The notes: generated from the letters alone by a model not told the origin. A stretch of 64,000 nt of DNA from Microbacterium sp. (GCF_044340635.1 NZ_JBIITF010000004.1:153731-217730); one strand, 5' to 3'; shown: positions 7,451 to 64,000, counted from the stretch's first letter. Numbers and translations are program-made.

Positions 7451-7497
7451 CCGTCAGGCCCGCCTGAACCCCGCCGCGGCAAGAAGTGGGGCATGTC

Positions 7498-7564
7498 GAG
7501 TGCTGTGGGGCACGACAGAACCTGCCCCACAGCATTCAACCCGCCCCGGTTCGAAACGGGCGGG
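7498..7564. repeat. Two adjacent hairpins after hrpA (REP-like and/or terminator)
   Basis: GAGTGCTGTGGGGCA (7498-7512) pairs with TGCCCCACAGCATTC (7523-7537); CCCGCCC (7540-7546) pairs with GGGCGGG (7558-7564). Confidence 0.7.
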
Positions 7565-7630
7565 CCCCGCGCGACGCGAGGTCTACGCTCGAGACAGATC
7601 GCCATCCCCGACGAGGAAGAACGCATCACC

Positions 7631-8572: not shown

Positions 8573-8574
8573 TG

Positions 8575-9417: not shown

Positions 9418-9544
9418 GGTTCTCCCGTCTACAGCTCCAGGGTAGGTCGCGGCGCCCGGGCCCCGCTCGTGCCATCCGCGCGAAGACTCGAGCACCGCGC
9501 GATACCCCCCGCGGCACGTCCCACCCCGCGGGTAGGCTCGGGGC

Positions 9545-10528: not shown

Positions 10529-10529
10529 C

Positions 10530-11405
10530 GTGGCCGAGGACGGCCGCGTCGCGGTCTATCTCGACTTCGACAACATCGTCATTTCCTGGTACGACCGCGT
10601 GCACGGACGCAATGCCTACGGGCGCGACCGCCAGCGGATCGCCGAGAACCCGGCCGAGCCCGAGATCGCGGAACGCCTCAGCCAGGCCGTCATCGACGTG
10701 GGCGCGATCATCGACTACGCGGCATCGTTCGGCACGCTCGTGTTGACCCGCGCCTACGCCGACTGGTCCTCACCGGTCAATGCCGTCTACCGCAGCCAGC
10801 TCGTGGCACGCGCCGTCGACCTCGTCCAGCTCTTCCCCGCCGCGGCATATGCCAAGAACGGCGCCGACATCCGCCTCGCGGTCGATGCGGTGGAGGACAT
10901 GTTCCGACTCCCCGACCTCACGCACGTCGTGATCGTCGCGGGCGACTCCGACTACGTACCTCTGGCCCAGCGCTGCAAGCGGCTCGGCCGCTTCGTCGTC
11001 GGGGTCGGCGTCGCGGGGTCCACGGCCAAGTCGCTCGCGGCGGCGTGCGACCAGTTCGACGCCTACGACGCCCTGCCGGGCGTCTCCGCCCCGAGCGGCA
11101 AGGCGCAGCAGAAACAGGATGCCCCGGCATCCGATGCTCCCGTGCGTCAGCGCCGCCGCACCGCGAAAGACCCTTCGGCCGACCTGCTCGAGCGCGCCCT
11201 GCGCCTCGAGCACGAACGCACGGACGCCGACTGGATGCACAGCTCGGTGATCAAGAACCTGATCAAGCGGATGGATCCCTCGTTCAGCGAGAAGGGGCTC
11301 GGTTTCAAGTCTTTCTCGGACTTCATCAAGGCGCACCCCACGATCGTCGAGATGAACGAGACCGACAACATCCGCCTCGTGCGCCTGGTTCCCGACAAGC
11401 GCTGA
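10530..11405 (+). CDS. NYN (LabA/DUF88) domain protein with C-terminal OST-HTH/LOTUS-like domain
   Basis: VYLDFDNI, KNGADIRLAVDA, GDSDY; tail IKRMDPSFSEKGLGFKSFSDFI. GTG start 1 nt after the previous stop. Confidence 0.85.
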   Translation: MAEDGRVAVYLDFDNIVISWYDRVHGRNAYGRDRQRIAENPAEPEIAERLSQAVIDVGAIIDYAASFGTLVLTRAYADWSSPVNAVYRSQLVARAVDLVQLFPAAAYAKNGADIRLAVDAVEDMFRLPDLTHVVIVAGDSDYVPLAQRCKRLGRFVVGVGVAGSTAKSLAAACDQFDAYDALPGVSAPSGKAQQKQDAPASDAPVRQRRRTAKDPSADLLERALRLEHERTDADWMHSSVIKNLIKRMDPSFSEKGLGFKSFSDFIKAHPTIVEMNETDNIRLVRLVPDKR

Positions 11406-11411
11406 CCGCCG

Positions 11412-11434
11412 CGGTCACTGAGCCTGTCGAAGTG
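11412..11434. repeat. Single arm of REP family B
   Basis: CGGTCACTGAGCCTGTCGAAGTG, sharing CTGAGCCTGTCGAAG with 4089-4103 and 37121-37135; lies between convergent stop codons. Confidence 0.7.
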
Positions 11435-11436
11435 AC

Positions 11437-11850
11437 CTACCGCGCCCGGGTCGACCAGAACGCCCACGCCACGAGGGCGGGCTGGAAGAACAGCCGCACG
11501 AGCCGCTTGCGGTCGGTGTCGAGACCGAACCCGTCGCGCTTCTTGGCGTACTGCTCGACGTTGCCCGGGAGCACCGCGACGAAGAACGCCGCGAGCAGCA
11601 GGCCGATGCGCGACCTCTCTTTCGGCAGGGCGATCAGGGCCGCCCCGAGCATGATTTCGACGGCTCCGGATGCCACGACCACGGCATCCTTGTCGAGAGG
11701 AGTGCGCTCGGTCGTCCAGTCCGGAACCTGCGCCTGGAACTCCGTGCGCGCCCAGAACAGGTGCGAGATTCCGGCGAAGGCGAGCGCGCCGCCCAGTGCC
11801 CAGCGAGCGATCGTGCGCGGGGGCGAGGATGCGATGTGGGTTGCGACCAT
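11437..11850 (-). CDS. DoxX-like membrane protein (paralogue 1)
   Basis: AGISHL, SGAVEIMLGAAL, FFVAVLPGN, RLVRLFFQP. Confidence 0.8.
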   Translation of the reverse strand: MVATHIASSPPRTIARWALGGALAFAGISHLFWARTEFQAQVPDWTTERTPLDKDAVVVASGAVEIMLGAALIALPKERSRIGLLLAAFFVAVLPGNVEQYAKKRDGFGLDTDRKRLVRLFFQPALVAWAFWSTRAR

Positions 11851-11874
11851 CCCCTCAGTCAACACCCGGCACGC

Positions 11875-11916
11875 GGTCAGTGGTACCGGTCAGTGGCGCC
11901 GGGTCAGTGGTACCGG
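11875..11916. repeat. 13/14-bp triplication of the acdS 3' end
   Basis: GGTCAGTGGTACC / GGTCAGTGGCGCCG / GGTCAGTGGTACC; the third copy carries the acdS stop codon. Confidence 0.85.
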
Positions 11917-12926
11917 CCGCTGTACGCGTTCAGCGCGGGCTGGCCGCCGAGGTGCGCATACAGAACGTTCGCGTCGCGCGGGATCTCGCCCGAGGACACG
12001 AGGTCGATGAGTCCCGCCATCGACTTGCCCTCGTACACCGGGTCGATGATGACGCCCTCGAGGCTGCCCGTCAGGCGCATGGCCTCGTCCGTCGACGCGA
12101 CCGGGATGCCGTAGTAGTCCCCCGCCCACCCCTCGAGGACGGTGATCTCGTCGTCGCGCAGGTCCCGGCCGACGCCGATCATGTCGGCCGTGCGCCGCGC
12201 GATCCGGGCGACCTGATCGCGCGTCTCGTCGATCTTGGCGGACGCGTCGATGCCGATCACCCGACGCTCGCGGCCGCCGAAGTTCTCGACCAGGTCGGCG
12301 AAGCCCGCGATCATGCCGGCGTGGGTCGAGCCCGTGACGCTGCAGACGACGATCGTGTCGAAGAAGACGCCGAGTTCGGCCTCTTGAGCGGCGACCTCGT
12401 GCGCCCAGTTGGCGAAGCCGAGTCCGCCGAGCGGGTGATCCGACGCCCCCGCCGGGATCGCATAGGGCGTGCCGCCGGATGCCTCGACGTCCGCGATCGC
12501 CTGCTTCCACGAGTCCTTGAACCCGATGCCGAAGCCCGAGGCATCCAGTCGCACGTCCGCACCCATCAGGCGCGAGAGCATGATGTTGCCGACCCGGTCG
12601 TTCACGGAATCGGGCCAGTCCACCCAGTTCTCCTGCACGAGGACGGCCTTCATGCCCAGGTGCGCGGCGACCGCGGCGACCTGCCGGGTGTGGTTGGACT
12701 GCACGCCCCCGATCGACACGAGCGTGTCGGCGCCCTGCGCGATCGCGTCGGGAATGAGGTATTCGAGCTTGCGCACCTTGTTGCCGCCATACGCGAGGCC
12801 GCTCGAGACGTCCTCGCGCTTCGCCCACACCCGCGCGCCGCCGAGGTGATCGCTCAAGCGGTTGAGCGGATGCACGGGGCTCGGCCCGAAGGTGAGCGGA
12901 TGACGCGGGAAGTCGCTGAGCGGCAT
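11904..12926 (-). CDS. acdS: 1-aminocyclopropane-1-carboxylate deaminase
   Basis: PLP lysine motif [20 protein letters not shown]; discriminating Glu in DPVYEGKS and Leu in HLGGQPAL are present. Confidence 0.93.
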
Positions 12927-12945
12927 GGTTCTCCAGAAGGTCGGG

Positions 12946-12965
12946 AATGCAACATATTACACATT
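12946..12965. promoter_or_regulatory. AT-rich imperfect palindrome upstream of acdS (promoter/operator candidate)
   Basis: AATGCAACATATTACACATT, 12/20 self-complementary, an AT-rich island 20 nt upstream of the ATG. Confidence 0.4.
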
Positions 12966-13005
12966 GGATGAGGAGCCCCTCGCCCGGACGTGGGGCCGCG
13001 GCGGG

Positions 13006-14052
13006 TCAGACCGGGTCGGTCGGGTTCACCTTTTCGACCAGCAGCGGATCGACCGGGGTGAACGGGAATGCGGGCAGCTGATCGACCGCGACACCGAAGG
13101 CGGCGGCCAGCACGGGGCGGGAGAACGCCGACACGGACTCGCGATAGCCGATGTCGCCGGGCGTCGGCTGATCGAAGAAGATCAGGAAGTGGATCTCGTC
13201 GTCCCCGATCACCTCGATCTGATGCGGGTACGCGGGCGGGACGAAGTAGCAATCGCCCGGCTCGAGCAGGTACGTGTCGACGGTGCCGTCGGGGTCGAGG
13301 ATCGACATCCGCGCGCGTCCCTGGTGCACGTAGCCCATCTCGGCGGTGCCGGGGTGCCAGTGCGGTTCGCGCATCCCGTCGTCGCGGATGGTCAGCGAGT
13401 ACATCGACATGCTCGCCAGAGCGGGCCAGTACTGGCTGCGCGCGAGCTTGACTGCGGCGAACGGATGCCGCAGCGGTGCCTCTTGCGACGCGATGTCGAA
13501 CTTGTGCGGGTTGCCGTAGCCTGCCGTGTCCGGGACCACCGGCGGGCCCTCCCGACGGACGATGTCGCGAGAGGTCGTGTCGCGGGGCAGGGCTGCGAAG
13601 TCCGACGCCGGGAGCCCGTAGGTGTTGCCCAGCACAGCATTCGACATCTCGCCGAACGCCGCGCGCAGCGAGAAGTCCTCGGGCGCCTCGTTCGAGAAGG
13701 CCACCACGATCTCGGCCTCGGCGTCGCCGATGTTCTCGATGTGATGCAGGGCCCCGGAGGGGATCGTGAACATCTGCCCCGCCGTGATCGTGAACGCCGA
13801 GAAGACGCTGCCGTTCTCGACGATCGACACCAGGACGGACCCCGCGAGGCAGTAGCCGAGCTCGTCGGCGTTGGCGTGCCAGTGCGGCTCACGGACGCTG
13901 CCGGGCGCCAGCACGAGCCGCTTGATGGAGAGCCGTCTCAGGATCGGGAAGTCATCGACGGTCAGGCGACGGATACTGCCGAGGTCGCTGTCGTGCTGGG
14001 CCTCGGCGGTGCGGAGGGAGCGGACGTGTCGGGAGGATGCGGTGGTGCTCAT
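13006..14052 (-). CDS. Bicupin, oxalate decarboxylase (OxdC)-like
   Basis: Two cupin metal sites: VREPHWH..ADELGY..LHHIEN and MREPHWH..AEMGY..YPHQIE. ATG overlaps the upstream stop (ATGA). Confidence 0.82.
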   Translation of the reverse strand: MSTTASSRHVRSLRTAEAQHDSDLGSIRRLTVDDFPILRRLSIKRLVLAPGSVREPHWHANADELGYCLAGSVLVSIVENGSVFSAFTITAGQMFTIPSGALHHIENIGDAEAEIVVAFSNEAPEDFSLRAAFGEMSNAVLGNTYGLPASDFAALPRDTTSRDIVRREGPPVVPDTAGYGNPHKFDIASQEAPLRHPFAAVKLARSQYWPALASMSMYSLTIRDDGMREPHWHPGTAEMGYVHQGRARMSILDPDGTVDTYLLEPGDCYFVPPAYPHQIEVIGDDEIHFLIFFDQPTPGDIGYRESVSAFSRPVLAAAFGVAVDQLPAFPFTPVDPLLVEKVNPTDPV

Positions 14053-14631: not shown

Positions 14632-15249
14632 TCAGCCGACCCGCTCGACGGGCTGCCGCAGGATCGTCCGGAGCTTCTCGGGCGCCGTGCGGCGGGGATC
14701 GCCGAGGTAGATCTCGTGGTGGCTCCCGGTCATCCGCAGGCCGTGGCCGGGGATGAAGTCGTCATGCATCGCCTCCAGCACGGGCCCCTCCGCGTCGTAG
14801 GGCCCGACGTGCAACGTCTGGACGCAGAGCCCCTCGTCGAGGGCCTCCACCCGGAGCGCGTCGATCACGGGCGCCGCGCCCTTCGCCCGCACCCGCTGCA
14901 CGGCGACCTCGACATGGGCGTCGTCGATCCAGTCGGGCACGAGGATCATCGCGGTCCAGCGCCAGCGGGTCTTGTCCCGCGCGAGGGTGAAGGCGGCCAT
15001 GTCGTCCGACCACCAGAGAGCCTCGAGCGGCATGACGACGTAGTCGCGGTCGAGCTCGCGCTTGCTCAGGAACTTGAGGGCATACGCGACCGGATACAGG
15101 GTGGTCAACGCATCCGCGTACGCCTGCGCCGTGTTCGGGTCGCCCGCGCCGTCGACCGCGAGGTAGCGCAGGGGCGGAACCGTCACGATCTCGAAGCTGC
15201 CGCGCGTCGCGCCGTACGCCGCCAGCTGCTTCTTCAGGTCGACCTTCAT
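14632..15249 (-). CDS. GyrI-like small-molecule-binding domain protein
   Basis: YLAVDGAGDPN, DYVVMPLEALWW, QTLHVGPYD, HHEIYLGDPRRTAPEKLRTILRQPV. Confidence 0.85.
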   Translation of the reverse strand: MKVDLKKQLAAYGATRGSFEIVTVPPLRYLAVDGAGDPNTAQAYADALTTLYPVAYALKFLSKRELDRDYVVMPLEALWWSDDMAAFTLARDKTRWRWTAMILVPDWIDDAHVEVAVQRVRAKGAAPVIDALRVEALDEGLCVQTLHVGPYDAEGPVLEAMHDDFIPGHGLRMTGSHHEIYLGDPRRTAPEKLRTILRQPVERVG

Positions 15250-54627: not shown

Positions 54628-56247
54628 CTAGTGGCTCGTCGCCTTCTCGGCGCCGTAGCCGGTGAGCGAGCGCACATCCATCTCCGCGGCGAGGCGCCGG
54701 TCCTCGGCCTTGCGTGACGTGACCGAACCGAGCCACCCGAGGAAGAACCCGAGCGGGATCGACACGATGCCGGGGTTGTTCAGCGGCCACAGCGCCGTTC
54801 CGACCGGGAACACGCTGGTCTCTGTGCCCCAGAAGACCGGCGAGGCGACGATCAGGATGACGGCCGCACCGAGCCCGCCGTACATGCTCCACACCGCGCC
54901 GCGCGTCGTGAACCCGCGCCAGAACAGCGAGTACAGGATCGTCGGCAGGTTCGCCGACGCCGCGACCGCGAAGGCCAGCGCGACGAGGAATGCCACATTC
55001 TGACCCTGCACCCCGATACCGCCGATGATCGCGAGCACACCGATCACGATCACCGTGCGACGGGCGACCTTCACCTCACCGTCCGGGGGCACATTGCCCT
55101 TCTTCACGACGTTCGCGTAGATGTCATGGGCGAACGACGCGGCCGCCGTGATCGTCAGACCCGCGACCACCGCGAGGATCGTCGCGAACGCGACCGCCGA
55201 GATGAACCCGAGCAGGATCGGACCACCGAGCGCCAGCGCCAGCAGCGGTGCCGCCGAGTTGACCCCACCCGGGGCCTCGCGGATCACGTCCGGACCCACC
55301 AGCGCCGCGGCGCCGTACCCCAGCACGAGCGTCAGCAGATAGAACAGGCCGATCAGCCAGATCGCCCACACCACCGAACGCCGCGCCTCTTTCGCCGTCG
55401 GCACCGTGTAGAAGCGCATCAGCACGTGCGGCAGACCAGCCGTGCCGAGCACGAGGGCGAGCGCCAGGCTGATGAAGTCCCACGGGTTCGCGCCGTACTG
55501 CAGGCCCGGTGCGAGGATCGCGTCCGGCGGCGTCGTGGTCGAGGCATCCACCGCTGCACCGAGCAGGGTGTTGATGTTGAACCCATTGATCGCCAGAACC
55601 CAGATCGTCATGACGATGGCGCCACCGATCAGCAGGAAGGCCTTGACGATCTGGACCCAGGTGGTGCCCTTCATGCCACCGATGAGCACGTAGACGATCA
55701 TCAGCACACCGACGACGGCGACGACGATCGACTGCCCGATCTGGTCGTTAATGCCGAGCAACAGCGAGACGAGCCCGCCCGCGCCCGCCATCTGCGCCAA
55801 CAGATAGAAGAAGCAGACCGCGAGGGTCGTGATGGCCGCCGCCATCCGCACCGGGCGCTGCGCGAGACGGAACGACAGCACGTCTGCCATCGTGAACTTG
55901 CCCGTGTTCCGCATCAGTTCGGCCACGAGCAGCAGCGCGACCAGCCAGGCGACGAGGAACCCGATCGAATACAGGAATCCGTCGTAGCCGTTCAACGCGA
56001 TGGCACCGCAGATGCCGAGGAAGGATGCCGCGGACAGGTAGTCCCCCGCGATCGCGAAGCCGTTCTGCGGACCCGTGAACGATCGTCCCGCGGCGTAGTA
56101 GTCGGCCGCGGTCTTGTTGTTGCGGCTCGCCCGGATGACGATGAACAACGTGATGGCGACGAACGCGCCGAAGATCGAGATGTTCAGGACGGGGTTGTTC
56201 TCGACCGTCGTGGAAGCGGCCTCGAGCGCCGCGAAGATGTCGTTCAC
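54628..56247 (-). CDS. actP: Cation/acetate symporter (SSS family)
   Basis: QNGFAIAGDYLSAASFLG, GGMKGTTWVQIVKA, GTAGLPHVLMRFYTVP, AFAVAASAN. Confidence 0.92.
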   Translation of the reverse strand: MNDIFAALEAASTTVENNPVLNISIFGAFVAITLFIVIRASRNNKTAADYYAAGRSFTGPQNGFAIAGDYLSAASFLGICGAIALNGYDGFLYSIGFLVAWLVALLLVAELMRNTGKFTMADVLSFRLAQRPVRMAAAITTLAVCFFYLLAQMAGAGGLVSLLLGINDQIGQSIVVAVVGVLMIVYVLIGGMKGTTWVQIVKAFLLIGGAIVMTIWVLAINGFNINTLLGAAVDASTTTPPDAILAPGLQYGANPWDFISLALALVLGTAGLPHVLMRFYTVPTAKEARRSVVWAIWLIGLFYLLTLVLGYGAAALVGPDVIREAPGGVNSAAPLLALALGGPILLGFISAVAFATILAVVAGLTITAAASFAHDIYANVVKKGNVPPDGEVKVARRTVIVIGVLAIIGGIGVQGQNVAFLVALAFAVAASANLPTILYSLFWRGFTTRGAVWSMYGGLGAAVILIVASPVFWGTETSVFPVGTALWPLNNPGIVSIPLGFFLGWLGSVTSRKAEDRRLAAEMDVRSLTGYGAEKATSH

Positions 56248-56594
56248 GAAGTGGGCTCCTGCTTCTCGAGGGCGTCACGAATGGCCTCGGCCTTCGGGTC
56301 GAGCTTGCGGTTCGCGAAGGCGACGTACGACATCGTGATCGCGAACGTGGTGACGAACTGCCCGAGACCGAAGATCAGCCCGACCGTCACATCACCCCAG
56401 ACGCGTGTGCCCATGAAGTCCGTGGCGAACGACGACAGCAGAACGTAAACGAAGTACCAGAGCAGGAATGCGACCGCGAGCGGGAACACGAAGCTGCGTT
56501 GCGTGCGCTTGAGTTCCTGAAACGGGGCGGACTCCTCGACCGCTATATAGTCGATGCCGCCGGGTGGGGCGGTCTCTTTTCTCGGATCACTCAT
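56244..56594 (-). CDS. DUF485 (YjcH-like) membrane protein
   Basis: FQELKRTQRSFVFP, GLGQFVTTF; overlaps the actP start. Confidence 0.88.
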   Translation of the reverse strand: MSDPRKETAPPGGIDYIAVEESAPFQELKRTQRSFVFPLAVAFLLWYFVYVLLSSFATDFMGTRVWGDVTVGLIFGLGQFVTTFAITMSYVAFANRKLDPKAEAIRDALEKQEPTS

Positions 56595-56769
56595 GTGGCC
56601 TCCTTGCCATCAGTGCACGGTCTGCGCGAAGCCCGAAAGACGGCCAAAAGTCCGCCACGAGGACATGACGGATAGGCCCGATCCCGAGCGCTTTTCTTTC
56701 GCTTCGGCAGGTGTAGGGTCGACGCTACGAAGGCGGCGAGGATGCCGTCACCCCCGAAAGTAGGTAGTG

Positions 56770-57696
56770 ATGCTTACCCAGGATCGGACTGACTCAGAAG
56801 CTTCGGCGCTGACGGGCGCCGTGCGCGAATTGGCGCGCCGGACGCACTTTCCGGTGTCGTTCGGCGGACTCGTCAACGACGGCAGCGCGCGCATCGGCGC
56901 CATCTACGGCAGCCGCACACGCAGCCTCGACGGCCTCAGCGTTCAGGTCATGCGCGGACTCGGCGGTCGCGCCATGGCCGAGCTGCGTCCGCGCGCGACG
57001 CCCGACTACGGATCGGCGCGGCACATCACGCACGACTACGACCGGCACATCCTGGGCGAGGGCATCTCGACGTTGTTGGCGGTTCCCGTGATCGTCGGCG
57101 GGCGCGTGCGCGGGCTCCTGTACGGGGGTGCGTGGGCATCCGCGAACGTCGGCGAAGTGGTCATGAAGCCTGCGTTCCAGGTGGCGGATGCCTTGGCCAC
57201 CGAGCTGCGTGTGCGCGATGAGGTCGAGCGGCGTCTGAGCGCCCTCGATGGCGCCACGGGTCCCGGCGCCGGGACAACCGGCGGCATCGGCGCCGGTGTG
57301 GCGGGCGTCACGGCGACGTCACCGACGCAGCATCCGTCATTGCCCGCGGCCCATCGCGAGGAGTTGCGCGAGAGCTACGCCGAGCTGCGCACCATCGCCT
57401 CGGCCATCACCGACCCGGCCGTCCGGGCCCGTTTGGAGCAGGTCGAGCACCGCTTGGCGGCACTCTCGGGGGATGACGACCCGCATCATCAAGCCGCCGC
57501 TGTGTCCCTCTCCCCCCGCGAAACGGATGTGCTCGCGTGCGCGGCGATCGGCGCCACGAACGCGCAGATAGCGACGCAACTCTCGCTGCGGGAGGGAACG
57601 GTCAAGGCGTACCTGTCGAGCGCGATGTCCAAGCTGGATGCGTCCACCCGTCACGCGGCCGTGACGAAGGCGCGACGAAGTGGACTGCTTCCCTGA
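56770..57696 (+). CDS. ramA: GAF + LuxR-HTH activator, RamA-like
   Basis: GLGGRAMAELRP..DY..ARHITHDYD..I..EG..TLLAVPVIV..RVRGLLY; LSPRETDVLAC..LG..N..TVKAYL, collinear with Corynebacterium RamA as I recall it. Confidence 0.78.
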   Translation: MLTQDRTDSEASALTGAVRELARRTHFPVSFGGLVNDGSARIGAIYGSRTRSLDGLSVQVMRGLGGRAMAELRPRATPDYGSARHITHDYDRHILGEGISTLLAVPVIVGGRVRGLLYGGAWASANVGEVVMKPAFQVADALATELRVRDEVERRLSALDGATGPGAGTTGGIGAGVAGVTATSPTQHPSLPAAHREELRESYAELRTIASAITDPAVRARLEQVEHRLAALSGDDDPHHQAAAVSLSPRETDVLACAAIGATNAQIATQLSLREGTVKAYLSSAMSKLDASTRHAAVTKARRSGLLP

Positions 57697-57772: not shown

Positions 57773-58129
57773 ATGGCCCGCAGAATCGTGCATCAGCTCG
57801 TCGACGACCTCGACGGCACCGTCCTCGACGCTGGAGAGGGTGAGACTGTCCTGTTCTCGCTCGACGGCATCGCGTACGAAATCGACCTCACCGAAGCCAA
57901 CGCCTCGGCGCTGCGCGACACCCTGCAGCCTTACGTCGCAGCCGCGCGTTCCATCTCTTCCCGCACGTCCGGCTCGCAGACCGCGGGCTCACGTCCCCGC
58001 CGCCGGTCGGGTCAGCAGGACTTCGGCGCCATCCGTCAGTGGGCGCGCGAAAACGGCCACCAGGTCTCCGACCGGGGCCGCGTTCCCGCGAACGTCATCG
58101 AGGCTTTCGAAGCCGCACAGGAGTCCTGA
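57773..58129 (+). CDS. lsr2: Lsr2 nucleoid-associated protein
   Basis: [37 protein letters not shown]. Confidence 0.93.
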
Positions 58130-58237
58130 GCGGCGCACGAGCGCAACATGGGAATTCCCTCCGTATGAGCGCGTGAGCTTGCATGCCGCTCGAATTCTCG
58201 GAATCGTTGCCACCTCGACGAACGGAAGGAGAGCAGC

Positions 58238-58522
58238 ATGCTGACACTCACCGAGAACGCGAGCATGGCCGTCAAGTCCATCGTGGAGCAGGTACCCGAC
58301 GCCCCGGCGGGGGGTCTCCGCATCCGCGACACGGGATTGGCCGAAACCGGATTCGAGCTCGGCGTTTCGCCGCAGCCCGAGACCACTGACGCGGTGGTGG
58401 AAGTCGAGGGCGCACGCGTCTTCCTCGACGCCGGCGCCGCACTGGCACTCGAGGACAAGATCCTCGATGCGCAGATGGAGCAGGACGGCTCCGTCCGTTT
58501 CGCTCTCGCCGTACAGGGCTAG
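58238..58522 (+). CDS. HesB/IscA-fold protein without cysteines
   Basis: MLTLTENA, GGLRI, VEVEGARVFLD, LEDKILDA; AAGGAG RBS. Confidence 0.78.
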   Translation: MLTLTENASMAVKSIVEQVPDAPAGGLRIRDTGLAETGFELGVSPQPETTDAVVEVEGARVFLDAGAALALEDKILDAQMEQDGSVRFALAVQG

Positions 58523-58537
58523 ACCCCCGTACGACAT

Positions 58538-58575
58538 GACGCGGGCCCCGGTGCGAAAGCGCCGGGGCCCGCGTC
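58538..58575 (+). terminator. Intrinsic terminator
   Basis: 17-bp stem GACGCGGGCCCCGGTGC-GAAA-GCGCCGGGGCCCGCGTC followed by GTTTGT. Confidence 0.8.
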
Positions 58576-58699
58576 GTTTGTCCCCCGCACCCCTGCGCTT
58601 ATACACGGCTGCGAGCCGACCGGCAAGGGTGCTTACGACAGCGCCGCCCCGGGATCGAATGGTCCTCGGTCATTTTGCCGAGAGCTGTCAGGGGAATGT

Positions 58700-59866
58700 G
58701 TGTCGCAGTCGTCAGTCCTCACCGAGGGGCGCCCTGTCGCGCCCGGAACGAAACCCGCCGCGGGCATCAAGGACTCCGCCGAGCCGCGAACGATACGGGT
58801 CGCGTCGATCCCTCGGGGTCATGTGTACGTCCGGCATATCGACGCGGACGACGCCATGCCGGGTTATCCGCGTATCGAACGTCTCGCCGATCCCGATCCC
58901 GCGCAGCCGGGCCGGGCGGCCCAGTCTCAGTGGTGGCCGCCGGCGATGCTCGAGGCGGCGTGGGTCCGTTCGCACAGCGAGTTCGATCTCGTGCATCTGC
59001 AGTTCGGGTTCGACGCTCGGAGCCCCGAGCAGCTGCGCGAGTGGATCGAGGCGCTCGACGAGACGGGACGTCCGCTCGTCTACACCGTTCATGACCTGCG
59101 AAATCCCCACCACGACGACTCCGCAGAGCACGACGCTCAGCTCGATGTCCTCGTCCCGACGGCTGCCGCGCTGATCACCCTCACTCCGGGTGCCGCAGCT
59201 GAGATCCGTGAGCGTTGGGGTCGCGAAGCTCACGTGCTGCCGCATCCGCACGTCGTCGACGTCGACACGATGGCACGGATGGCACGGGGCGCATCACGAA
59301 GCGCGGGCGAGTTCCGCGTGGGCGTGCACGTGAAAAGCCTCCGCGCGAATATGGACCCACTGCCGGTCCTCCGCACACTGCGCAGCGCCGTCGCGGATCT
59401 ACCGGGCGCGGTACTTCAGGTGAATGGGCACCGCGACGTTCTTCTGGAGGACGGGGCGCGATACGAACCGACACTCGCCGCCTTCCTGCGCCGGGCGGCG
59501 TCCGACGGCGAGATCGACCTGCGCATCCACGACTTCTTCGACGACGCGCAGCTGTGGGAGTACCTGGGATCGCTCGACGTCTCGGTGCTGCCCTACCGAT
59601 TCGGTACGCATTCCGGCTGGCTCGAGGCATGTCGGGACCTCGGCACGGCGGTCGCGGCACCCACCTGCGGTTACTACGCGGAGCAGGGCGACGTGTTCTC
59701 GTATGAGCACGACGTGCGGGGCCTCGACGAGACTTCGCTCGTCCGCGCCATCCGAGAGGCCTATGACCAGGGGCGCGCAGAACCCCTGTCGATCAGCGCT
59801 CGGCGAGCGCAACGGATGCGCATTGCGCAGGCTCACGCGCGCATCTACGAGGGGTTGCTAGCATGA
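58700..59866 (+). CDS. GT-B glycosyltransferase (GT4-like)
   Basis: DLVHLQFGF, YTVHDLRNPH, VLPYRFGTHSGWLEA; start uncertain. Confidence 0.78.
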   Translation: MSQSSVLTEGRPVAPGTKPAAGIKDSAEPRTIRVASIPRGHVYVRHIDADDAMPGYPRIERLADPDPAQPGRAAQSQWWPPAMLEAAWVRSHSEFDLVHLQFGFDARSPEQLREWIEALDETGRPLVYTVHDLRNPHHDDSAEHDAQLDVLVPTAAALITLTPGAAAEIRERWGREAHVLPHPHVVDVDTMARMARGASRSAGEFRVGVHVKSLRANMDPLPVLRTLRSAVADLPGAVLQVNGHRDVLLEDGARYEPTLAAFLRRAASDGEIDLRIHDFFDDAQLWEYLGSLDVSVLPYRFGTHSGWLEACRDLGTAVAAPTCGYYAEQGDVFSYEHDVRGLDETSLVRAIREAYDQGRAEPLSISARRAQRMRIAQAHARIYEGLLA

Positions 59867-60939
59867 GGCGGCTGCGCGTCTGCCTGATCGCATCGAGCCG
59901 CTTCCCCGTGCGCGAGCCTTTCGCGGGCGGACTCGAGGCGCACATCCATGCGCTCGCCCGGAGTCTGCGCGACCGCGGGCACGAGGTGAGTGTCTTCGCG
60001 GCGCCGGGATCGGATCCCGCCCTCGAAATCCATCCCCTCGATGTCGAGGAGTTCGATGCCTCGAGCGCGGCGCGAGCGGATGTATCCGCTCCCCCGGATG
60101 CCTGGATGCGCGAGCATCATGCCTATCTTTCGCTCATGATCTCGCTCGCTCGCTCGGGCCACGAGCGATTCGACGTCGTGCACAACAACAGCCTTCATCA
60201 CCTGCCCGTCGCCATGGCCTCGACCCTCTCGATCCCCATGGTCACGACACTGCACACGCCTCCGACGCCGTGGCTGGAGTCCGCGCTGAAGTTCGCGCCG
60301 ACCCATTCAGCGTTCGCCGCGGTGAGCGAATTCACGGCAGAGCAATGGAGGCATGTCGTCGACGCGGTCGTCGTCCGCAACGGCATCGACCTGACGCGCT
60401 GGCCGGAGGGGCCCGGCGGCACGGATGCGGTGTGGTTCGGTCGCATCGTGCCGGAGAAGGCACCGCATCTCGCGATCGATGCCGCACGGCGCGCGGGTAT
60501 CGCCATCAACCTGGCGGGTCCCGTGTTCGACAACGACTACTTCGCGCGTGAGATCGAACCTCGCCTCGGGTCGGGCGTGCGGCTTCTGGGACATCTGCAC
60601 AGCTCACAACTTTCTGAGGTGGTTCGCCGCGCACGGGTCACGGTGCTCACGCCGCGGTGGGAGGAGCCGTACGGGCTCGTCGCGGCCGAGTCGATGGCAA
60701 GCGGCACGCCGGTGGCCGCCTTCGCCCGGGGCGGTCTGACTGAGGTGGTGGGCGATGGCGGTGGGTTCCTGGCGGGGCCCGACGACGTCGATGAGCTTCC
60801 GCGTACGATCGTGCGGGCAGCCGAATTGCCGCGCGCCGCGGTGCGGGCACACGCCATGCGGTACCACTCGCTCGACACCATGGTCGCGCAGTACGAATCG
60901 ATCTACACACATCTCGCGTCCGATAGCCGCGCCGCGTGA
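59863..60939 (+). CDS. GT4 glycosyltransferase
   Basis: AGGLE, DVVHNNS, TTLHTPP, GRIVPEKAPH, EEPYGLVAAESMASGTP (EX7E). Confidence 0.9.
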   Translation: MRRLRVCLIASSRFPVREPFAGGLEAHIHALARSLRDRGHEVSVFAAPGSDPALEIHPLDVEEFDASSAARADVSAPPDAWMREHHAYLSLMISLARSGHERFDVVHNNSLHHLPVAMASTLSIPMVTTLHTPPTPWLESALKFAPTHSAFAAVSEFTAEQWRHVVDAVVVRNGIDLTRWPEGPGGTDAVWFGRIVPEKAPHLAIDAARRAGIAINLAGPVFDNDYFAREIEPRLGSGVRLLGHLHSSQLSEVVRRARVTVLTPRWEEPYGLVAAESMASGTPVAAFARGGLTEVVGDGGGFLAGPDDVDELPRTIVRAAELPRAAVRAHAMRYHSLDTMVAQYESIYTHLASDSRAA

Positions 60940-61937
60940 TCGGTTACTACATTCACCACCACGGCCGCGGTCATCTCTCGCGGGCCACCGCCATCGCGCG
61001 CGAGCTGGGAGAGAAGGTGACGGGGCTGTCGTCGTTACCGCGGCCCGATGATTGGCCCGGCGATTGGGTGCACCTGCCCCTCGACGACGCGACGCCGCCA
61101 CGGGATCCGGAGCCCTCGGGGCGCCTGCACTGGGTACCTCTCGGATCCGTTGGACTGCGGCAACGGATGTCCGCCATCTCGGGGTGGCTCGGCGCGCATC
61201 GCCCGCGCGTCGTGGTCGTCGACGTTTCGGTCGAGGTGTGTCTGCTCGTCCGCCTTCACGGCGTGCCCGTCGTGACGTTTGCCCTGCCGGGGCACCGTGC
61301 CGATCCGGCGCACGAGCTCGGCTTCGACGTGGCGACGACGATCCTCGGCGCGTGGCCCCGCGAGGCGGCCGCTGACATCGTCACCGGCCTGTCCGCTCGC
61401 GTGATGAAGCGCATCATCCCGGTCGGGGGCATCTCCCGGTTCGCTCCGTCAGACGACGACGCTCGAACGGACCGAATCCCCCGGGTCTTGGTGCTCTCGG
61501 GGGCGGGCGGGGGTGACTTCTCGGCGCTGTCGATCCAGGAGGCAAGCCGTTCCACCCCGGACTGGGAGTGGGCCCATCTCGGTGGCTCGTCCTCGACCTG
61601 GGTCGCGGATCCCTGGCAGCACCTGCTAGCGGCCGACGTCATCGTGACGCACGCGGGGCAGAACGCCGTTGCCGAGGTCGCCGCCGCGCGCAGGCCCGCC
61701 GTGATCATCCCCCAGGACAGACCGCATGCCGAGCAGCGGACGACGGCACGCGTGCTCGATCAGGGCCCGTGGCCCGCGGTGGTACTGGACGCGGTTCCCG
61801 ACTCGGGCTGGTCCGACATCCTCGAGCGCACGCGGCGGCTCGACGGCAGCGCCTGGCGGGCGTGGAACGACGGAGAGAGCGCCGCACGGGCAGCCCACCA
61901 CATCCGCCGCACCGCCGAGATCGCGGAGAACGATTGA
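60936..61937 (+). CDS. GT-B glycosyltransferase (GT28/GT1-like C-terminal domain)
   Basis: YYIHHHGRGH, LSGAGG, DVIVTHAGQNAVAEV, PQDRPHAEQ. Confidence 0.8.
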   Translation: MIGYYIHHHGRGHLSRATAIARELGEKVTGLSSLPRPDDWPGDWVHLPLDDATPPRDPEPSGRLHWVPLGSVGLRQRMSAISGWLGAHRPRVVVVDVSVEVCLLVRLHGVPVVTFALPGHRADPAHELGFDVATTILGAWPREAAADIVTGLSARVMKRIIPVGGISRFAPSDDDARTDRIPRVLVLSGAGGGDFSALSIQEASRSTPDWEWAHLGGSSSTWVADPWQHLLAADVIVTHAGQNAVAEVAAARRPAVIIPQDRPHAEQRTTARVLDQGPWPAVVLDAVPDSGWSDILERTRRLDGSAWRAWNDGESAARAAHHIRRTAEIAEND

Positions 61938-62773
61938 TGCGCACGGCGATCGTCACGATCGCGCACGGCCGCCACGATCACTGGCTGATGCAGCGCGCGG
62001 CCCTCGCCCGGACGGACGTCGCGTTCGACGAGCAGGTCGTGGTCGCGATCGCCGATCCCGCTTTCGAGACCGTAGCCCGACGGGTGCGAGATACGCCGAC
62101 GCGAGTCATCCACCTCGATGCGCACGCGGAGGGCCTGCCGCTCGCGGCCGCGCGCAACGCCGGCGCTCGAGCGGCGCTCGGCGCGGGAGCCGACCTGCTC
62201 ATCTTTCTGGACGTGGACTGCCTGCCCGGCCCAGAACTGGTCGGCGGATACGTTGACGCGGCCACCGCTGACGCGACGCGCGGGGCCCTGCTCTGCGGTC
62301 CCGTCACGTACCTCGACCCTCCCGGCCCGACCGGGTACGAACTCGAGCTCCTGGATGACTACGACTCGCCGCATCCGGCGCGGCCCGCCCCGCGGCGCGG
62401 CGAAACCCTGCTCGGTGGCCCTCACGAGCTGTTCTGGTCGCTGTCGTTCGCGCTGGACGCCTCGAACTGGGCGCGGATCGGCGGCTTCTGCGAGGACTAC
62501 GTCGGCTACGGCGGCGAAGACACGGATTTCGGCCAGCGCGCCCGCTCATCCGGCGTTCCGCTGGCGTGGGTAGGGGATGCGCGCGCGTACCACCAACACC
62601 ACCCCACGACCGATCCTCCGGTGCAGCATCTGGACGCGATCCTGCGCAACGCGGCCGTCTTCGAATCCCTCTGGGGGTGGTGGCCGATGCAGGGATGGCT
62701 CGACGGATTCGAACGGGCGGGCCTCATCGAACGTGAAGCCGCGGGCACCTACCGCCGCACCAGCACGGGGTAG
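61937..62773 (+). CDS. GT-A (GT2-like) glycosyltransferase
   Basis: LAAARNAGA, DxD in FLDVDC, FWSLSFA, GYGGEDTDF; TGATG overlap. Confidence 0.85.
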   Translation: MRTAIVTIAHGRHDHWLMQRAALARTDVAFDEQVVVAIADPAFETVARRVRDTPTRVIHLDAHAEGLPLAAARNAGARAALGAGADLLIFLDVDCLPGPELVGGYVDAATADATRGALLCGPVTYLDPPGPTGYELELLDDYDSPHPARPAPRRGETLLGGPHELFWSLSFALDASNWARIGGFCEDYVGYGGEDTDFGQRARSSGVPLAWVGDARAYHQHHPTTDPPVQHLDAILRNAAVFESLWGWWPMQGWLDGFERAGLIEREAAGTYRRTSTG

Positions 62774-62779
62774 GACCGG

Positions 62780-63031
62780 TTAGGCGGGGGCTGGATCGCC
62801 TCGGTCGGCATCCACCGGGTCCGTGCGGAAGCCGCTGAGTTTGTGCGTGCCGTCGCACCACGGCTTGATGAGCGAGGCTCCGCACCGGCACAGGGCAACG
62901 GTGCGCCGCTGAGGCTCCAAGACGAGACCGTCGGAGTCGACGATCTCGACGTGCCCGCGAACGATGAGCGGACCGTCCGGATAGGCCTCGATGGACGGAG
63001 TTCGCGCCGCCGAGTCGTTGCTGCTCGTCAT
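62780..63031 (-). CDS. CDGSH iron-sulfur domain protein
   Basis: ALCRCGAS..KPWCDGTH. Confidence 0.9.
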   Translation of the reverse strand: MTSSNDSAARTPSIEAYPDGPLIVRGHVEIVDSDGLVLEPQRRTVALCRCGASLIKPWCDGTHKLSGFRTDPVDADRGDPAPA

Positions 63032-63041
63032 CCGCCCGCCC

Positions 63042-64000
63042 TCACACATCGCGGAGCGAACTGCGGCCGCTCTCGAAAGCCGCGAGCATCTCGTCCCCGA
63101 CCCAGCCGTCGACGGTCAGGCAAGCGGCAGCGCCGAACATGATGTCTCCGAGAAGATCCGGTCGATCCTCGGCGAGTCCACCCGCAAGGTCTCGCCCCGC
63201 GATCTGTTCGTGCACCGCGTCGGCTTCGACATGCTCGTCGAAGTAGTGAGTGGCTTCGGGTCCGAAGCCGAGGCGCCGGAATCCGTCGCCGTACATGCGG
63301 TTCGGCAGCGACGAGGTCATCTCGAACGCCGCGAGATGACCCACGATGGCGCCGACCAGGCGTCGATTCAGACCGAACATCGACATCATGTTCAGCGAGG
63401 CCAGGGTGACGGCCGGCACGGCGTCCAGATACGCACCGTAGGTGTCATCGAGCCCTGCCGCGCGCACGGTTCGCGCGAAGATCCGCGAGTGCATCCGCGA
63501 GAGGTCGCCGCTGCCGTACTCGTCCGACTGGATCTCGACGAGGGCCGCCTTCGACGCGCCCGTCAGGCGAGGGATCGCCCAGGAGTGCGGGTCCGCCTCG
63601 CGAAGCGTGTAGACACTGCGCTGAATCAGGAACTCGCGCAGCTGTTCGCCCGTCGCCTTCTTCGCGACGAATCGCGACAGGCTCGGACCCGGTGTCGGCG
63701 CGGTCAGCGCGAACAGGGCGCGCGCGACCCCGTCGCGGGTCGGTACTGGTGGCGCGGGCGTCTCGACACGCTCGCGCAGCATTTCTTCGAAGGCGCGCTC
63801 CAGCATGCCGCGCGTGGCGATGAGCATGGGATGCCACTCCCAGCCCGCGTCGATGACGTCGAGGGATCCGTAGTGGCTGGCGTAGAGCAAGAACAGGGCG
63901 AGTTGGACGTCGTCGTCGCGGGCCAGGTCGGATGCCTCGGCGAGCGCCCGGGCGGCGAACCCGACCACATCGCCGATCTCGGCCGTAGCGGGGTTCTGTG
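63042..64000 (-). CDS. Iron-containing redox enzyme / heme-oxygenase-like diiron oxidase; 5' end outside the window
   Basis: EIQSDEYGSG...RMHS, HLAAFEMTS, FDEHVEADAVHEQ; frame stays open to the window edge. Confidence 0.85.
   Translation of the reverse strand, partial: QNPATAEIGDVVGFAARALAEASDLARDDDVQLALFLLYASHYGSLDVIDAGWEWHPMLIATRGMLERAFEEMLRERVETPAPPVPTRDGVARALFALTAPTPGPSLSRFVAKKATGEQLREFLIQRSVYTLREADPHSWAIPRLTGASKAALVEIQSDEYGSGDLSRMHSRIFARTVRAAGLDDTYGAYLDAVPAVTLASLNMMSMFGLNRRLVGAIVGHLAAFEMTSSLPNRMYGDGFRRLGFGPEATHYFDEHVEADAVHEQIAGRDLAGGLAEDRPDLLGDIMFGAAACLTVDGWVGDEMLAAFESGRSSLRDV

What the first reader, a model, noticed from the sequence alone, without database searches (positions are those of the whole stretch)
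58700..62773. Tightly coupled operon of four different glycosyltransferases with no sugar-synthesis, polymerase or export genes
Seen: GT4-like, GT4, GT28/GT1-like and GT2-like genes joined by ATGA, GTGA and TGATG overlaps. I see no flippase, Wzy, ABC transporter or NDP-sugar enzyme nearby, and no obvious TM segments. The first GT has the atypical PYRFGTHSGWLE in place of EX7E. Inference: assembly of a defined small oligosaccharide or glycoconjugate (solute, glycolipid or glycosylated metabolite), not a capsule. I do not know a product for this arrangement.
Basis: partly seen in the sequence, partly recalled or inferred. Interest (0 to 1): 0.66.

Follow-up and report, generated by a model that had tools for sequence, protein, structure and literature searches.

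The report
Conserved four-glycosyltransferase cassette, product unknown
Four overlapping genes for four different soluble sugar-transferring enzymes form a unit that is kept intact, and sometimes fused into two proteins, in scattered Actinobacteria and on their large plasmids, usually among stress-response genes; it probably builds a defined small sugar chain inside the cell, but no product is known.

Summary
Window 58700-62773 (+) holds four translationally coupled genes (ATGA, GTGA and TGATG overlaps). GT_A is a divergent GT-B enzyme with invariant YRFGTHSGWLE in place of EX7E. GT_B is a canonical GT4. GT_C is a GT28/GT1-like inverting GT-B. GT_D is a GT2 with a beta4GalT-type DVD and GYGGEDTD. 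None has a TM segment, and no export or NDP-sugar gene lies within about 9 kb.

The A-B-C-D unit is kept in 81 of 99 loci from several orders and classes of Actinomycetota. It is also on Rhodococcus and Streptomyces megaplasmids. It is patchy: 11 of 401 genomes of the phylum, and none of three congeners. GT_A occurs fused to GT_B, GT_C or GT_D, and one isolate encodes B::A plus C::D.

In other lineages the cassette lies in SigB-type stress islands, and a GNNT-N14-16-GGGTAY promoter precedes it in 18 of 98 loci. This genome lacks such a sigma factor. At genome level the cassette is not linked to HDO/CDGSH within Microbacteriaceae.

No characterised pathway matched. GT_B's nearest solved relatives glycosylate soluble small molecules. 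Best reading: a self-contained cytoplasmic enzyme set, probably a complex, that makes a defined oligosaccharide or glycoside, probably stress-related. A lipid-linked product is not excluded.

The parts
58533..58582 (+). Strong hairpin (intrinsic-terminator-like, weak T tail) that ends the upstream Lsr2/HesB-like unit and separates it from the GT operon
   Evidence: RNA fold -47.8 kcal/mol, z = -6.7 against shuffles; sequence
58583..58699 (+). Upstream region of the operon. The promoter is not identified. GGGGAA at 58691-58696 is the likely ribosome-binding site of GT_A. ATTTTG-N14-GGGAAT resembles a SigB-type promoter, but its distance to the start codon does not fit one
   Evidence: Sequence read; no sigma-70-type match; no Rfam match; no GGGTAY here, unlike many orthologous loci
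58700..59866 (+). GT_A: divergent GT-B glycosyltransferase of the retaining GT4/GT5-like fold. It has invariant YRFGTHSGWLE instead of EX7E and founds a small, sharply bounded family
   Evidence: Pfam only PF13439, below cut-off. No PDB sequence hit even with a profile. AF2 pLDDT 86.7. Foldseek best matches are glycogen synthase, BshA, SPS, MMP ManT and GlgM at E about 1e-10. 798 representatives at E<=1e-3 out of 1.84 billion. The GTG start at 58700 keeps strand beta1 (RVASIP), which the 347-aa database call P0007 cuts off
59863..60939 (+). GT_B: canonical compact soluble GT4, presumably a retaining enzyme
   Evidence: PF13439 77.9 bits and PF00534 66.8 bits. G193-R194, K199 and E268-x7-E276 are at least 95% conserved in 90 orthologues. 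Best PDB hits: 7FG9 glucosylsucrose synthase 1.3e-34 and 5ZER BH4 glucosyltransferase 5.7e-29
60936..61937 (+). GT_C: GT28/GT1-like inverting GT-B glycosyltransferase, rich in Trp, with N-terminal YYxHHxGxGH and C-terminal HAGQN...P..RP..EQ motifs
   Evidence: PF04101 27.8 bits. Profile hit to MurG at 5.4e-6. AF2 pLDDT 90.7. Foldseek best matches are MurG 1NLM/1F0K and GT1 natural-product GTs at E about 1e-11 to 1e-12. Invariant columns
61937..62773 (+). GT_D: GT-A fold GT2 with a beta4GalT-type C-terminal region. It carries the DXD motif LDVDC and GYGGEDTD, so it is presumably an inverting, metal-dependent enzyme
   Evidence: PF02709 35.2, PF10111 29.7 and PF00535 23.5 bits. PDB K4CP chondroitin synthase 1.5e-9, beta4GalT1 weak. 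D92, D94, E194 and D195 are at least 95% conserved in 85 orthologues

Best explanation
The four genes form one operon and one functional module. It comprises two retaining-type GT-B enzymes (GT_A, GT_B), one inverting GT-B (GT_C) and one inverting GT-A (GT_D). All are soluble and made in fixed proportion through overlapping stop and start codons. They probably work as a multi-enzyme complex in the cytoplasm.

Using ordinary nucleotide sugars, they add sugars one after another to a common cellular acceptor. The result would be one defined hetero-oligosaccharide or glycoside, with up to four different linkages (two alpha, two beta). The product stays in the cell or is handled by unlinked genes.

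The module is an accessory trait. It is patchy in distribution, plasmid-borne in some genera, and in most lineages wired into the SigB-type general stress response. Its product is therefore most likely a stress-related (osmotic, desiccation or stationary-phase) intracellular glycan or solute.

Shown: gene structure, enzyme classes, conservation as a unit, domain fusions, stress-island context and SigB-type promoters in other lineages.

Inferred: complex formation, order of action, cytoplasmic soluble product, protective role.

My odds: functional unit 0.9; soluble or intracellular small glycan 0.45; stress role 0.55.
For: - The unit is conserved. A-B-C-D in this order is found in 81 of 99 loci from Microbacteriaceae, Micrococcaceae, Nocardioidaceae, Intrasporangiaceae, Brevibacteriaceae, Nocardiaceae, Streptomycetaceae and other classes of the phylum.
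- Identities of the four proteins to ours co-vary across loci (r = 0.56-0.82).
- Start/stop overlaps recur elsewhere.
- Fusions exist: D::A, B::A, A::B and C::A proteins. They were confirmed as open frames on contigs, including an isolate genome that encodes B::A (751 aa) next to C::D (647 aa).
- All four proteins are acidic and lack TM segments.
- No exporter, polymerase, priming transferase or NDP-sugar gene recurs among the neighbours.
- GT_B's nearest solved relatives act on soluble small molecules. These are TeGSS, which acts on sucrose (PMC9909042), and BGluT.
- GT_A's nearest folds are cytoplasmic retaining enzymes: glycogen synthase, BshA, SPS, MMP ManT, GlgM and TreT.
- Stress context. 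SigB/F-type sigma genes lie within about 10 kb in 21 of 99 loci from at least four lineages. The neighbours also include catalase, Dps, RsbU/RsbW/STAS, GAF-ANTAR, SRPBCC and CDGSH genes.
- GGGTAY is nine-fold enriched upstream of GT_A. GNNT-N14-16-GGGTAY-N5-12-RTG occurs in 18 of 98 loci against 0.7% of control windows. This matches the published SigB-homologue consensus (PMC8346170). One locus has GTTTTG-N13-GGGTAC directly after two such sigma genes.
- Accessory and mobile: 11 of 401 genomes of the phylum, 32 of 201 of the family, 0 of 3 congeners; 8 megaplasmids.
Against:
- This genome has no close SigB/F-type sigma factor (best match 27-29% identity) and no GGGTAY upstream. The stress wiring is therefore transferred from other lineages. 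Here the neighbours are a LuxR-GAF regulator and an Lsr2 paralogue, behind a terminator.
- GT4, GT28 and GT2 are exactly the families that make glycoglycerolipids and polyprenol-linked glycans with peripheral, TM-less enzymes. GT_C's best sequence and fold relative is MurG, a lipid II enzyme.
- A more distant form of the cassette (39-46% identity) sits beside WcbI and extra GT genes, which hints at a longer, acylated glycan.
- TeGSS catalytic Tyr18 is not conserved in GT_B (A21).
- A few genomes carry GT_A alone.
Confidence: 0.5

Rival explanations
1. The cassette builds a lipid-anchored glycan on the inner face of the membrane. This could be a tri- or tetra-glycosyl diacylglycerol, or an oligosaccharide on polyprenyl phosphate that unlinked genes later flip and attach to the wall or to a lipoglycan.
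For: - GT4 (PimA, MgtA type), GT28 (MurG, MGDG and UgtP type) and GT2 enzymes that use lipid acceptors are typically TM-less peripheral proteins (established knowledge).
- GT_C's best relative by profile and by fold is MurG. PimA is among the hits of GT_A and GT_B.
- The distant cassette type has WcbI, a capsule-cluster enzyme family, and extra GT genes.
- Actinobacteria make trehalose-based tri- to pentasaccharide lipids whose genes are poorly known (PMC4365757).
Against: - No priming phosphoglycosyl transferase, flippase, ABC exporter, polymerase, ligase or acyltransferase recurs near about 100 loci.
- All four proteins are acidic (pI 5.1-6.2), not basic as is common for membrane-surface GTs. 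This is weak evidence.
- The very high sequence conservation and fixed gene content are unlike surface-polysaccharide loci.
- The cassette is embedded in cytoplasmic stress-protein islands.
Confidence: 0.3
2. The four enzymes decorate a non-carbohydrate target. This could be a specific cytoplasmic protein, or a small aglycone or cofactor (for example a pterin-like compound or a product of neighbouring oxidoreductases such as HDO/CDGSH) that receives a short sugar chain.
For: - GT_B resembles tetrahydrobiopterin glucosyltransferases (104 bits).
- GT_C resembles GT1 natural-product glycosyltransferases.
- GT_D weakly resembles MftF, which glycosylates mycofactocin (25 bits against a 280 cut-off).
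- HDO-CDGSH, amine-oxidase-like, Zn-ADH and SDR genes lie within 8 kb in many Nocardioidaceae loci, and HDO-CDGSH does here.
Against: - There is no genome-level association with HDO in Microbacteriaceae: 5 genomes have both, 6.4 expected.
- The oxidoreductase neighbours vary in position and are absent from most families.
- No candidate substrate protein is conserved beside the cassette.
- The similarities to BGluT and MftF are far below family cut-offs.
Confidence: 0.12
3. The four genes are neighbours by descent only. They have separate functions and make no joint product.
For: GT_A occurs alone in a few genomes (L031, L071, L085, L096, L098).
Against: The same order is kept across classes and on plasmids, the start/stop overlaps are conserved, identities co-vary, and domain fusions join all four.
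Confidence: 0.03

Closest known systems
Glucosylsucrose synthase TeGSS (PDB 7FG9) and the UDP-glucose:tetrahydrobiopterin glucosyltransferases (PDB 5ZER): compact soluble GT4 enzymes of cyanobacteria
   Same: GT_B aligns over its full length (123 and 104 bits). It has about the same size (about 350 aa), the GGxE loop, GR...K and EX7E, and is soluble. TeGSS extends a non-reducing disaccharide into stress-associated oligosaccharides.
   Different: Identity is only about 30%. TeGSS catalytic Tyr18 corresponds to Ala21 in GT_B. Those enzymes act alone, whereas GT_B is locked into a four-GT cassette and is sometimes fused to GT_A. No sucrose or pterin context is present.
Intracellular polymethylated polysaccharide pathways of mycobacteria (MMP four-gene cluster ManT/MeT1/MeT3/MmpH; MGLP)
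   Same: Both are small actinobacterial gene clusters of soluble enzymes with no export genes. Their products are cytoplasmic glycans linked to temperature and stress adaptation, and their distribution is patchy (PMC9883506). ManT (7QSG) is among the nearest folds of GT_A and among the sequence hits of GT_B. One cassette variant carries a GT2::FkbM-type methyltransferase fusion.
   Different: MMP uses one GT plus methyltransferases and a hydrolase to make a homopolymer. Here there are four different GT classes, and in this genome no methyltransferase or hydrolase. This implies a hetero-oligosaccharide. No orthology was found.
MurG (GT28) and GT1 natural-product glycosyltransferases
   Same: GT_C has the same GT-B fold and the same C-terminal nucleotide-sugar motif region (profile E = 5e-6 to MurG; Foldseek E about 1e-12).
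   Different: The TIGR01133 murG score is 24 bits against a cut-off of 250. The N-terminal acceptor domain is unrelated in sequence and rich in Trp. There is no cell-wall gene context.
Wzx/Wzy- or ABC-transporter-dependent surface polysaccharide loci
   Same: Several different GT genes lie in one operon. The distant cassette type has a WcbI-family gene.
   Different: There is no priming transferase, flippase, polymerase, chain-length regulator, exporter or sugar-nucleotide gene here, and none recurs in about 100 related loci. Gene content is fixed and not variable.

Membership tests
CAZy GT4 (retaining GT-B): GT_B | N- and C-terminal GT4 domains above the Pfam cut-offs, and the EX7E motif with GR...K donor-binding residues | tested here: met
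   PF13439 77.9 bits and PF00534 66.8 bits. G193-R194, K199 and E268-x7-E276 are at least 95% conserved
CAZy GT4 (retaining GT-B): GT_A | Recognisable GT4 sequence domains and the EX7E motif | tested here: not met
   PF13439 scores 20.7 against 28.5 and there is no C-terminal domain hit. The first Glu is replaced (Y299-R300) and the loop is longer by one or two residues, depending on the alignment; only E309 is kept. No PDB sequence hit was found with the profile
GT-B fold nucleotide-sugar glycosyltransferase: GT_A | Two Rossmann-like domains that superpose on solved GT-B enzymes | tested here: met
   AF2 pLDDT 86.7, pTM 0.85. Foldseek probability 1.00 to GS, BshA, SPS, ManT and GlgM, E about 1e-10, TM 0.5-0.6
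GT28 / MurG: GT_C | PF04101 C-terminal domain; for MurG proper, the TIGR01133 equivalog score | tested here: inconclusive
   PF04101 scores 27.8 against 22, so the domain is met. TIGR01133 scores 24.3 against 250, so GT_C is not MurG. The fold is equally close to GT1 enzymes
GT2 / beta4GalT-like GT-A: GT_D | GT2 domain, DXD motif and the Glyco_transf_7C region with an acidic catalytic motif | tested here: met
   PF02709 35.2, PF10111 29.7 and PF00535 23.5 bits, all above cut-off. LDVDC and GYGGEDTD are at least 95% conserved
Glucosylsucrose synthase (TeGSS-type alpha-1,2-glucosyltransferase) | Catalytic Tyr18 and Arg179 (PMC9909042) | tested here: not met
   The Arg is kept (R194), but Tyr18 aligns with Ala21. 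Identity is about 30%
Surface-polysaccharide (capsule, O-antigen or wall polymer) locus | A priming transferase plus a flippase/polymerase or an ABC exporter in the locus | tested here: not met
   None was found in window 49.5-71.7 kb. None is among the recurrent neighbour families of 80 loci or in the annotated plasmid contexts
SigB-type general stress regulon | A GNNT/GTTT-N12-16-GGGTAY promoter and dependence on a SigB/F-type sigma factor | tested here: inconclusive
   The motif is enriched upstream of orthologous cassettes: 18 of 98 loci against 0.7% of controls. It is not found in this window, and this genome lacks a close SigB/F-type sigma factor. Expression was not testable
Anti-phage defence glycosyltransferases (GT4-conflict, PADLOC) | A match to the defence-system models | tested here: not met
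   PF20706 scores 22 bits against 26. There are no PADLOC hits

The most novel reading that the evidence does not exclude
The cassette encodes a dedicated four-enzyme cytoplasmic glycosyltransferase complex. It would make a so far undescribed stress-induced hetero-oligosaccharide of Actinomycetota, for example a chain built on trehalose, the phylum's universal non-reducing disaccharide. This would parallel cyanobacterial glucosylsucroses and the fungal trehalose-based oligosaccharides that protect ascospores. GT_A would found a new glycosyltransferase family with an R/Y-x8-E variant of the EX7E site. The trait would spread on megaplasmids as a portable desiccation or osmotic protection module.
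Probability: 0.2. Interest if true: 0.7.

Novelty: new variant of a known kind. Interest (0 to 1): 0.45.

Why it matters
Glycan operons are normally read through their export and sugar-supply genes. This one is a fixed, self-sufficient set of four different transferases with neither. It has been kept for a long time, moved on plasmids, and repeatedly fused into bifunctional proteins.

If its product is an intracellular oligosaccharide, that would add a new class of actinobacterial stress metabolite. It would also give genes to a chemistry (trehalose-type oligosaccharides and their lipids) whose biosynthesis is largely unassigned.

GT_A is a compact and easily recognised family: 798 representatives among 1.84 billion proteins. 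It has no solved or characterised member. The natural fusions make the system attractive for structural work on how glycosyltransferases hand over intermediates.

If the product proves to be an ordinary glycolipid, the finding becomes a routine annotation improvement.

Tried and rejected
- HDO/CDGSH as an obligate partner: rejected at genome level. The congeners' HDO loci share no further synteny with this window, so the borders of a possible island could not be mapped.
- Characterised equivalogs: no NCBIfam model reaches its cut-off (MSMEG_0565, MshA, BshA, MurG and MftF are all far below).
- Sequence search of PDB with GT_A, alone and as a profile: nothing meaningful. The phytase hit at E = 0.16 is noise.
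- Anti-phage defence role: no PADLOC hits.
- RNA element in the 5' region: no Rfam hit. No sigma-70-type promoter was found.
- A SigB-type promoter in this window: ATTTTG-N14-GGGAAT ends 2 nt before the GTG start. That does not fit the N5-12 geometry seen elsewhere, and the genome lacks the sigma factor. It is left unresolved.
- Literature searches found no study of this cassette. The terms covered SigF/SigB regulons, Rhodococcus desiccation, glucosylsucrose, pteridine glycosyltransferases and trehalose oligosaccharides.
- Earlier notes of this scan hold nothing on this family.

Full report
**What is there.** The window comes from a 3.27-Mb, roughly 70% G+C Microbacteriaceae genome (contig C7). 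On the + strand lie four ORFs: GT_A 58700-59866 (388 aa), GT_B 59863-60939 (358 aa), GT_C 60936-61937 (333 aa) and GT_D 61937-62773 (278 aa). A long ORF from 61568 is an upstream extension in GT_D's own frame, and orthologues start at the ATG at 61937.

The GTG at 58700 is the only start that keeps the conserved first beta-strand (RVASIP). It is preceded by GGGGAA. A database gene call of 347 aa for this genome (P0007) begins at codon 42 and is probably too short.

A very stable hairpin at 58533-58582 (-47.8 kcal/mol, z = -6.7) separates the operon from the upstream genes. These are a LuxR-GAF regulator (56767-57696), an Lsr2 paralogue (57773-58129) and a Cys-less 94-aa protein that looks HesB-like by eye but has no family match (58238-58522). 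Downstream, a CDGSH protein (62780-63049, -) and a haem-oxygenase-like diiron protein (63042-64187, -) converge on GT_D. Only 6 nt lie between the two stop codons.

**Enzyme classes.**
- *GT_B* is a textbook GT4. PF13439 and PF00534 are well above cut-off. GR...K and E268-x7-E276 are at least 95% conserved in 90 orthologues.
- *GT_D* is a GT2 with the Glyco_transf_7C region. It has an LDVDC DXD motif and GYGGEDTD, which resembles the acidic catalytic motif of beta-1,4-galactosyltransferases as I recall it. That comparison was not checked here.
- *GT_C* passes the Glyco_tran_28_C cut-off. Its model (pLDDT 90.7) superposes best on MurG and on GT1 natural-product transferases. It is far below the murG equivalog score.
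- *GT_A* is the unusual one. It has only a sub-threshold N-terminal Pfam hit and no PDB sequence relative, even with a 47-sequence profile. Yet its model is confident (pLDDT 86.7) and has the GT-B fold. The nearest structures are cytoplasmic retaining enzymes: glycogen synthase, BshA, sucrose-phosphate synthase, the MMP mannosyltransferase, GlgM and TreT.

The second Glu of EX7E (E309) is kept, and the first is replaced by Tyr/Arg with a longer loop. H210, K212 and R215 are invariant where GT4 enzymes bind the diphosphate. I therefore read GT_A as an active enzyme of a new subfamily, not a dead scaffold, but this is inference.

All four proteins are acidic (pI 5.1-6.2) and lack hydrophobic segments.

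**The unit is conserved.** A scan of species-representative genomes found at least 567 relatives of GT_A. Of the 80 best loci, about 72 carry GT_B, GT_C and GT_D directly behind it in the same order. The same holds for a more distant form (39-46% identity) in other Microbacteriaceae. It also holds in other classes of the phylum, where a second GT_A paralogue can be inserted. Counting everything fetched, 81 of 99 loci have all four at 70% coverage or more. The exceptions are contig ends, frameshifted MAG genes and about five genomes with GT_A alone. Identities of the four proteins to ours co-vary (r = 0.56-0.82).

**Domain fusions.** The strongest evidence that the four act together comes from fusions. 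An exhaustive search found GT_A fused to GT_D (three cases), to GT_B (both orders) and to GT_C. Three were checked on their contigs. One contig has C followed by D::A. Another has B followed by C::A, then WcbI and a GT4::GT2 fusion. An NCBI isolate genome encodes B::A (751 aa) followed by C::D (647 aa).

**Distribution.** The cassette is an accessory trait. It is in 11 of 401 evenly sampled Actinomycetota genomes and 32 of 201 Microbacteriaceae, of which only six are the close type. It is in none of three genomes of the same genus. It sits on seven Rhodococcus megaplasmids and one Streptomyces plasmid.

The GT_A tree mostly follows families, with some cross-family placements. For example, Rothia halotolerans groups with this sequence and another Microbacterium (support 96).

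The GT_A family is small and sharply bounded: 798 representatives at E<=1e-3 out of 1.84 billion. Ordinary GT4 proteins are not reached at all.

**Context.** Nothing beside the cassette recurs everywhere, and no exporter, polymerase, priming transferase or sugar-nucleotide enzyme recurs. What does recur, in several independent lineages, is general-stress equipment:
- SigB/SigF-type sigma factors, in 21 of 99 loci. These include Nocardioidaceae, a Rhodococcus plasmid, a probable Rhodococcus chromosome (family code f6, inferred from its grouping with the plasmid copy) where two such genes directly precede GT_A, and another class.
- RsbU/RsbW/STAS partner-switching proteins.
- GAF-ANTAR regulators, large catalases, Dps, SRPBCC and CDGSH proteins.

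Upstream of GT_A, GGGTAY is nine times more frequent than in the loci at large. The composite GNNT-N14-16-GGGTAY-N5-12-RTG occurs in 18 of 98 loci against 0.7% of random windows. This is the published consensus of SigB homologues of Streptomyces coelicolor (PMC8346170). The short distance to the start codon suggests leaderless or nearly leaderless transcripts.

The caveat for this window is that the genome has no close SigB/F-type sigma factor and no GGGTAY upstream. Regulation here is unknown.

**The HDO/CDGSH idea.** Within Microbacteriaceae the HDO gene is in 40 of 201 genomes and the cassette in 32. Five have both (6.4 expected), and in the four other than this one the two lie far apart. 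The three congeners have HDO-CDGSH without the cassette. The adjacency here is therefore not evidence of a shared pathway. In Nocardioidaceae, on a Streptomyces plasmid and here, CDGSH and SRPBCC genes are among the stress-island neighbours.

**What it most likely does.** Two retaining-type and two inverting enzymes are made in fixed proportion and are sometimes covalently joined. This should build one defined glycan with up to four linkages.

Several points favour a cytoplasmic oligosaccharide or glycoside made from common precursors:
- The gene content is fixed.
- Sequence conservation is very high.
- Dedicated supply and export genes are absent.
- The proteins are soluble.
- GT_B resembles enzymes that glycosylate soluble small molecules. 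These are glucosylsucrose synthase, which extends sucrose (PMC9909042), and tetrahydrobiopterin glucosyltransferase.

Actinobacteria already provide a precedent for export-less clusters that make intracellular glycans tied to temperature stress: the polymethylated polysaccharides (PMC9883506). Fungi provide one for trehalose-based oligosaccharides as protectants (PMC4371660). Trehalose synthesis is present in this genome (OtsA). Trehalose as the acceptor is nevertheless pure conjecture.

**The main rival** is a lipid-anchored product. GT4, GT28 and GT2 enzymes that work on diacylglycerol or polyprenol carriers are also TM-less, and GT_C's nearest relative is MurG. The distant cassette type has WcbI and extra GTs, and actinobacterial oligosaccharide lipids exist (PMC4365757). 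I put the soluble or intracellular reading at about 0.45, the lipid-linked reading at about 0.3, decoration of a protein or aglycone at about 0.12, and 'not a functional unit' at about 0.03.

**Novelty and verdict.** The enzyme folds are known and the logic of sequential glycosyl transfer is ordinary. What appears undescribed:
- the conserved, mobile, export-less four-GT cassette;
- its fusions;
- its SigB-type wiring;
- the GT_A family itself.

No characterised pathway matched in NCBIfam, PDB or the searchable literature. I rate it a new variant of a known kind, of moderate interest, with a clear experimental path.

Noticed in passing
window 57773-58522: An Lsr2 paralogue (dimerisation plus DNA-binding domains) is followed by an acidic, Cys-less 94-aa protein that looks HesB/IscA-like and has no Pfam or PADLOC hit. 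After it comes a -47.8 kcal/mol hairpin. A LuxR-GAF regulator lies just upstream (56767-57696). None of these accompanies the cassette in the closest relatives.
   Followed up: partly
L014, L025, L027, L034, L045, L050, L054, L069, L070 and others, 10-90 nt upstream of GT_A: In Nocardioides the cassette is preceded by GCATG-N14-15-GGGTAC, and the GTG/ATG start follows only 5-12 nt later. This implies SigB-type promoters that drive leaderless or near-leaderless mRNAs.
   Followed up: partly
L111 (NCBI GCA_000298175.1, BAGZ01000008.1) 6001-13496: Here the cassette is encoded as two bifunctional proteins, B::A (751 aa) and C::D (647 aa). They are followed by an unknown 365-aa protein and a GT2-7C::Methyltransf_21 fusion (739 aa). 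This hints at a longer, possibly O-methylated glycan in that lineage.
   Followed up: partly
L082, L083, L084, L086, L092, L110: A second, more distant form of the cassette (39-46% identity) is flanked by a WcbI-family gene plus an extra GT4-like gene and an extra GT2-7C gene. In L110 the two extra GTs are fused (775 aa).
   Followed up: partly
L108 (Streptomyces sp. NBC_01426 plasmid) 14638-14913: A stand-alone 91-aa 'isoamylase early set' (CBM48-like, glucan-binding) protein lies directly after the cassette, next to SRPBCC and catalase genes. It may be a binder of the product.
   Followed up: no
L067 (contig labelled MAG: Sphingomonas paucimobilis): This 7.6-kb contig carries the actinobacterial-type cassette (48-60% identity) and nests among Propionibacteriales in the GT_A tree. 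It is probably a mis-binned contig and not a proteobacterial occurrence.
   Followed up: no
window 54628-56594 (-): An SSF-family sodium:solute symporter with its small DUF485 partner, an ActP/YjcH-like pair. It is the only transporter near the operon and is unrelated to glycan export.
   Followed up: no
beyond the window, window-equivalent 70485-71723 (-), L001 8216-9454: A 412-aa GT2 (Glyco_trans_2_3 / GT21-like) lies 8 kb downstream, after SRPBCC, ABC1-kinase, flavodoxin-like, TetR, SnoaL and RibD_C genes. A relation to the cassette is unknown.
   Followed up: no
L107 (R. qingshengii pdjl-6-4) and L108 (Streptomyces plasmid): A HemK2/MTQ2-family protein methyltransferase gene lies within a few kb of the cassette on both plasmids, in different orders. 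The Rhodococcus plasmid also has two CinA genes and nadE nearby.
   Followed up: no
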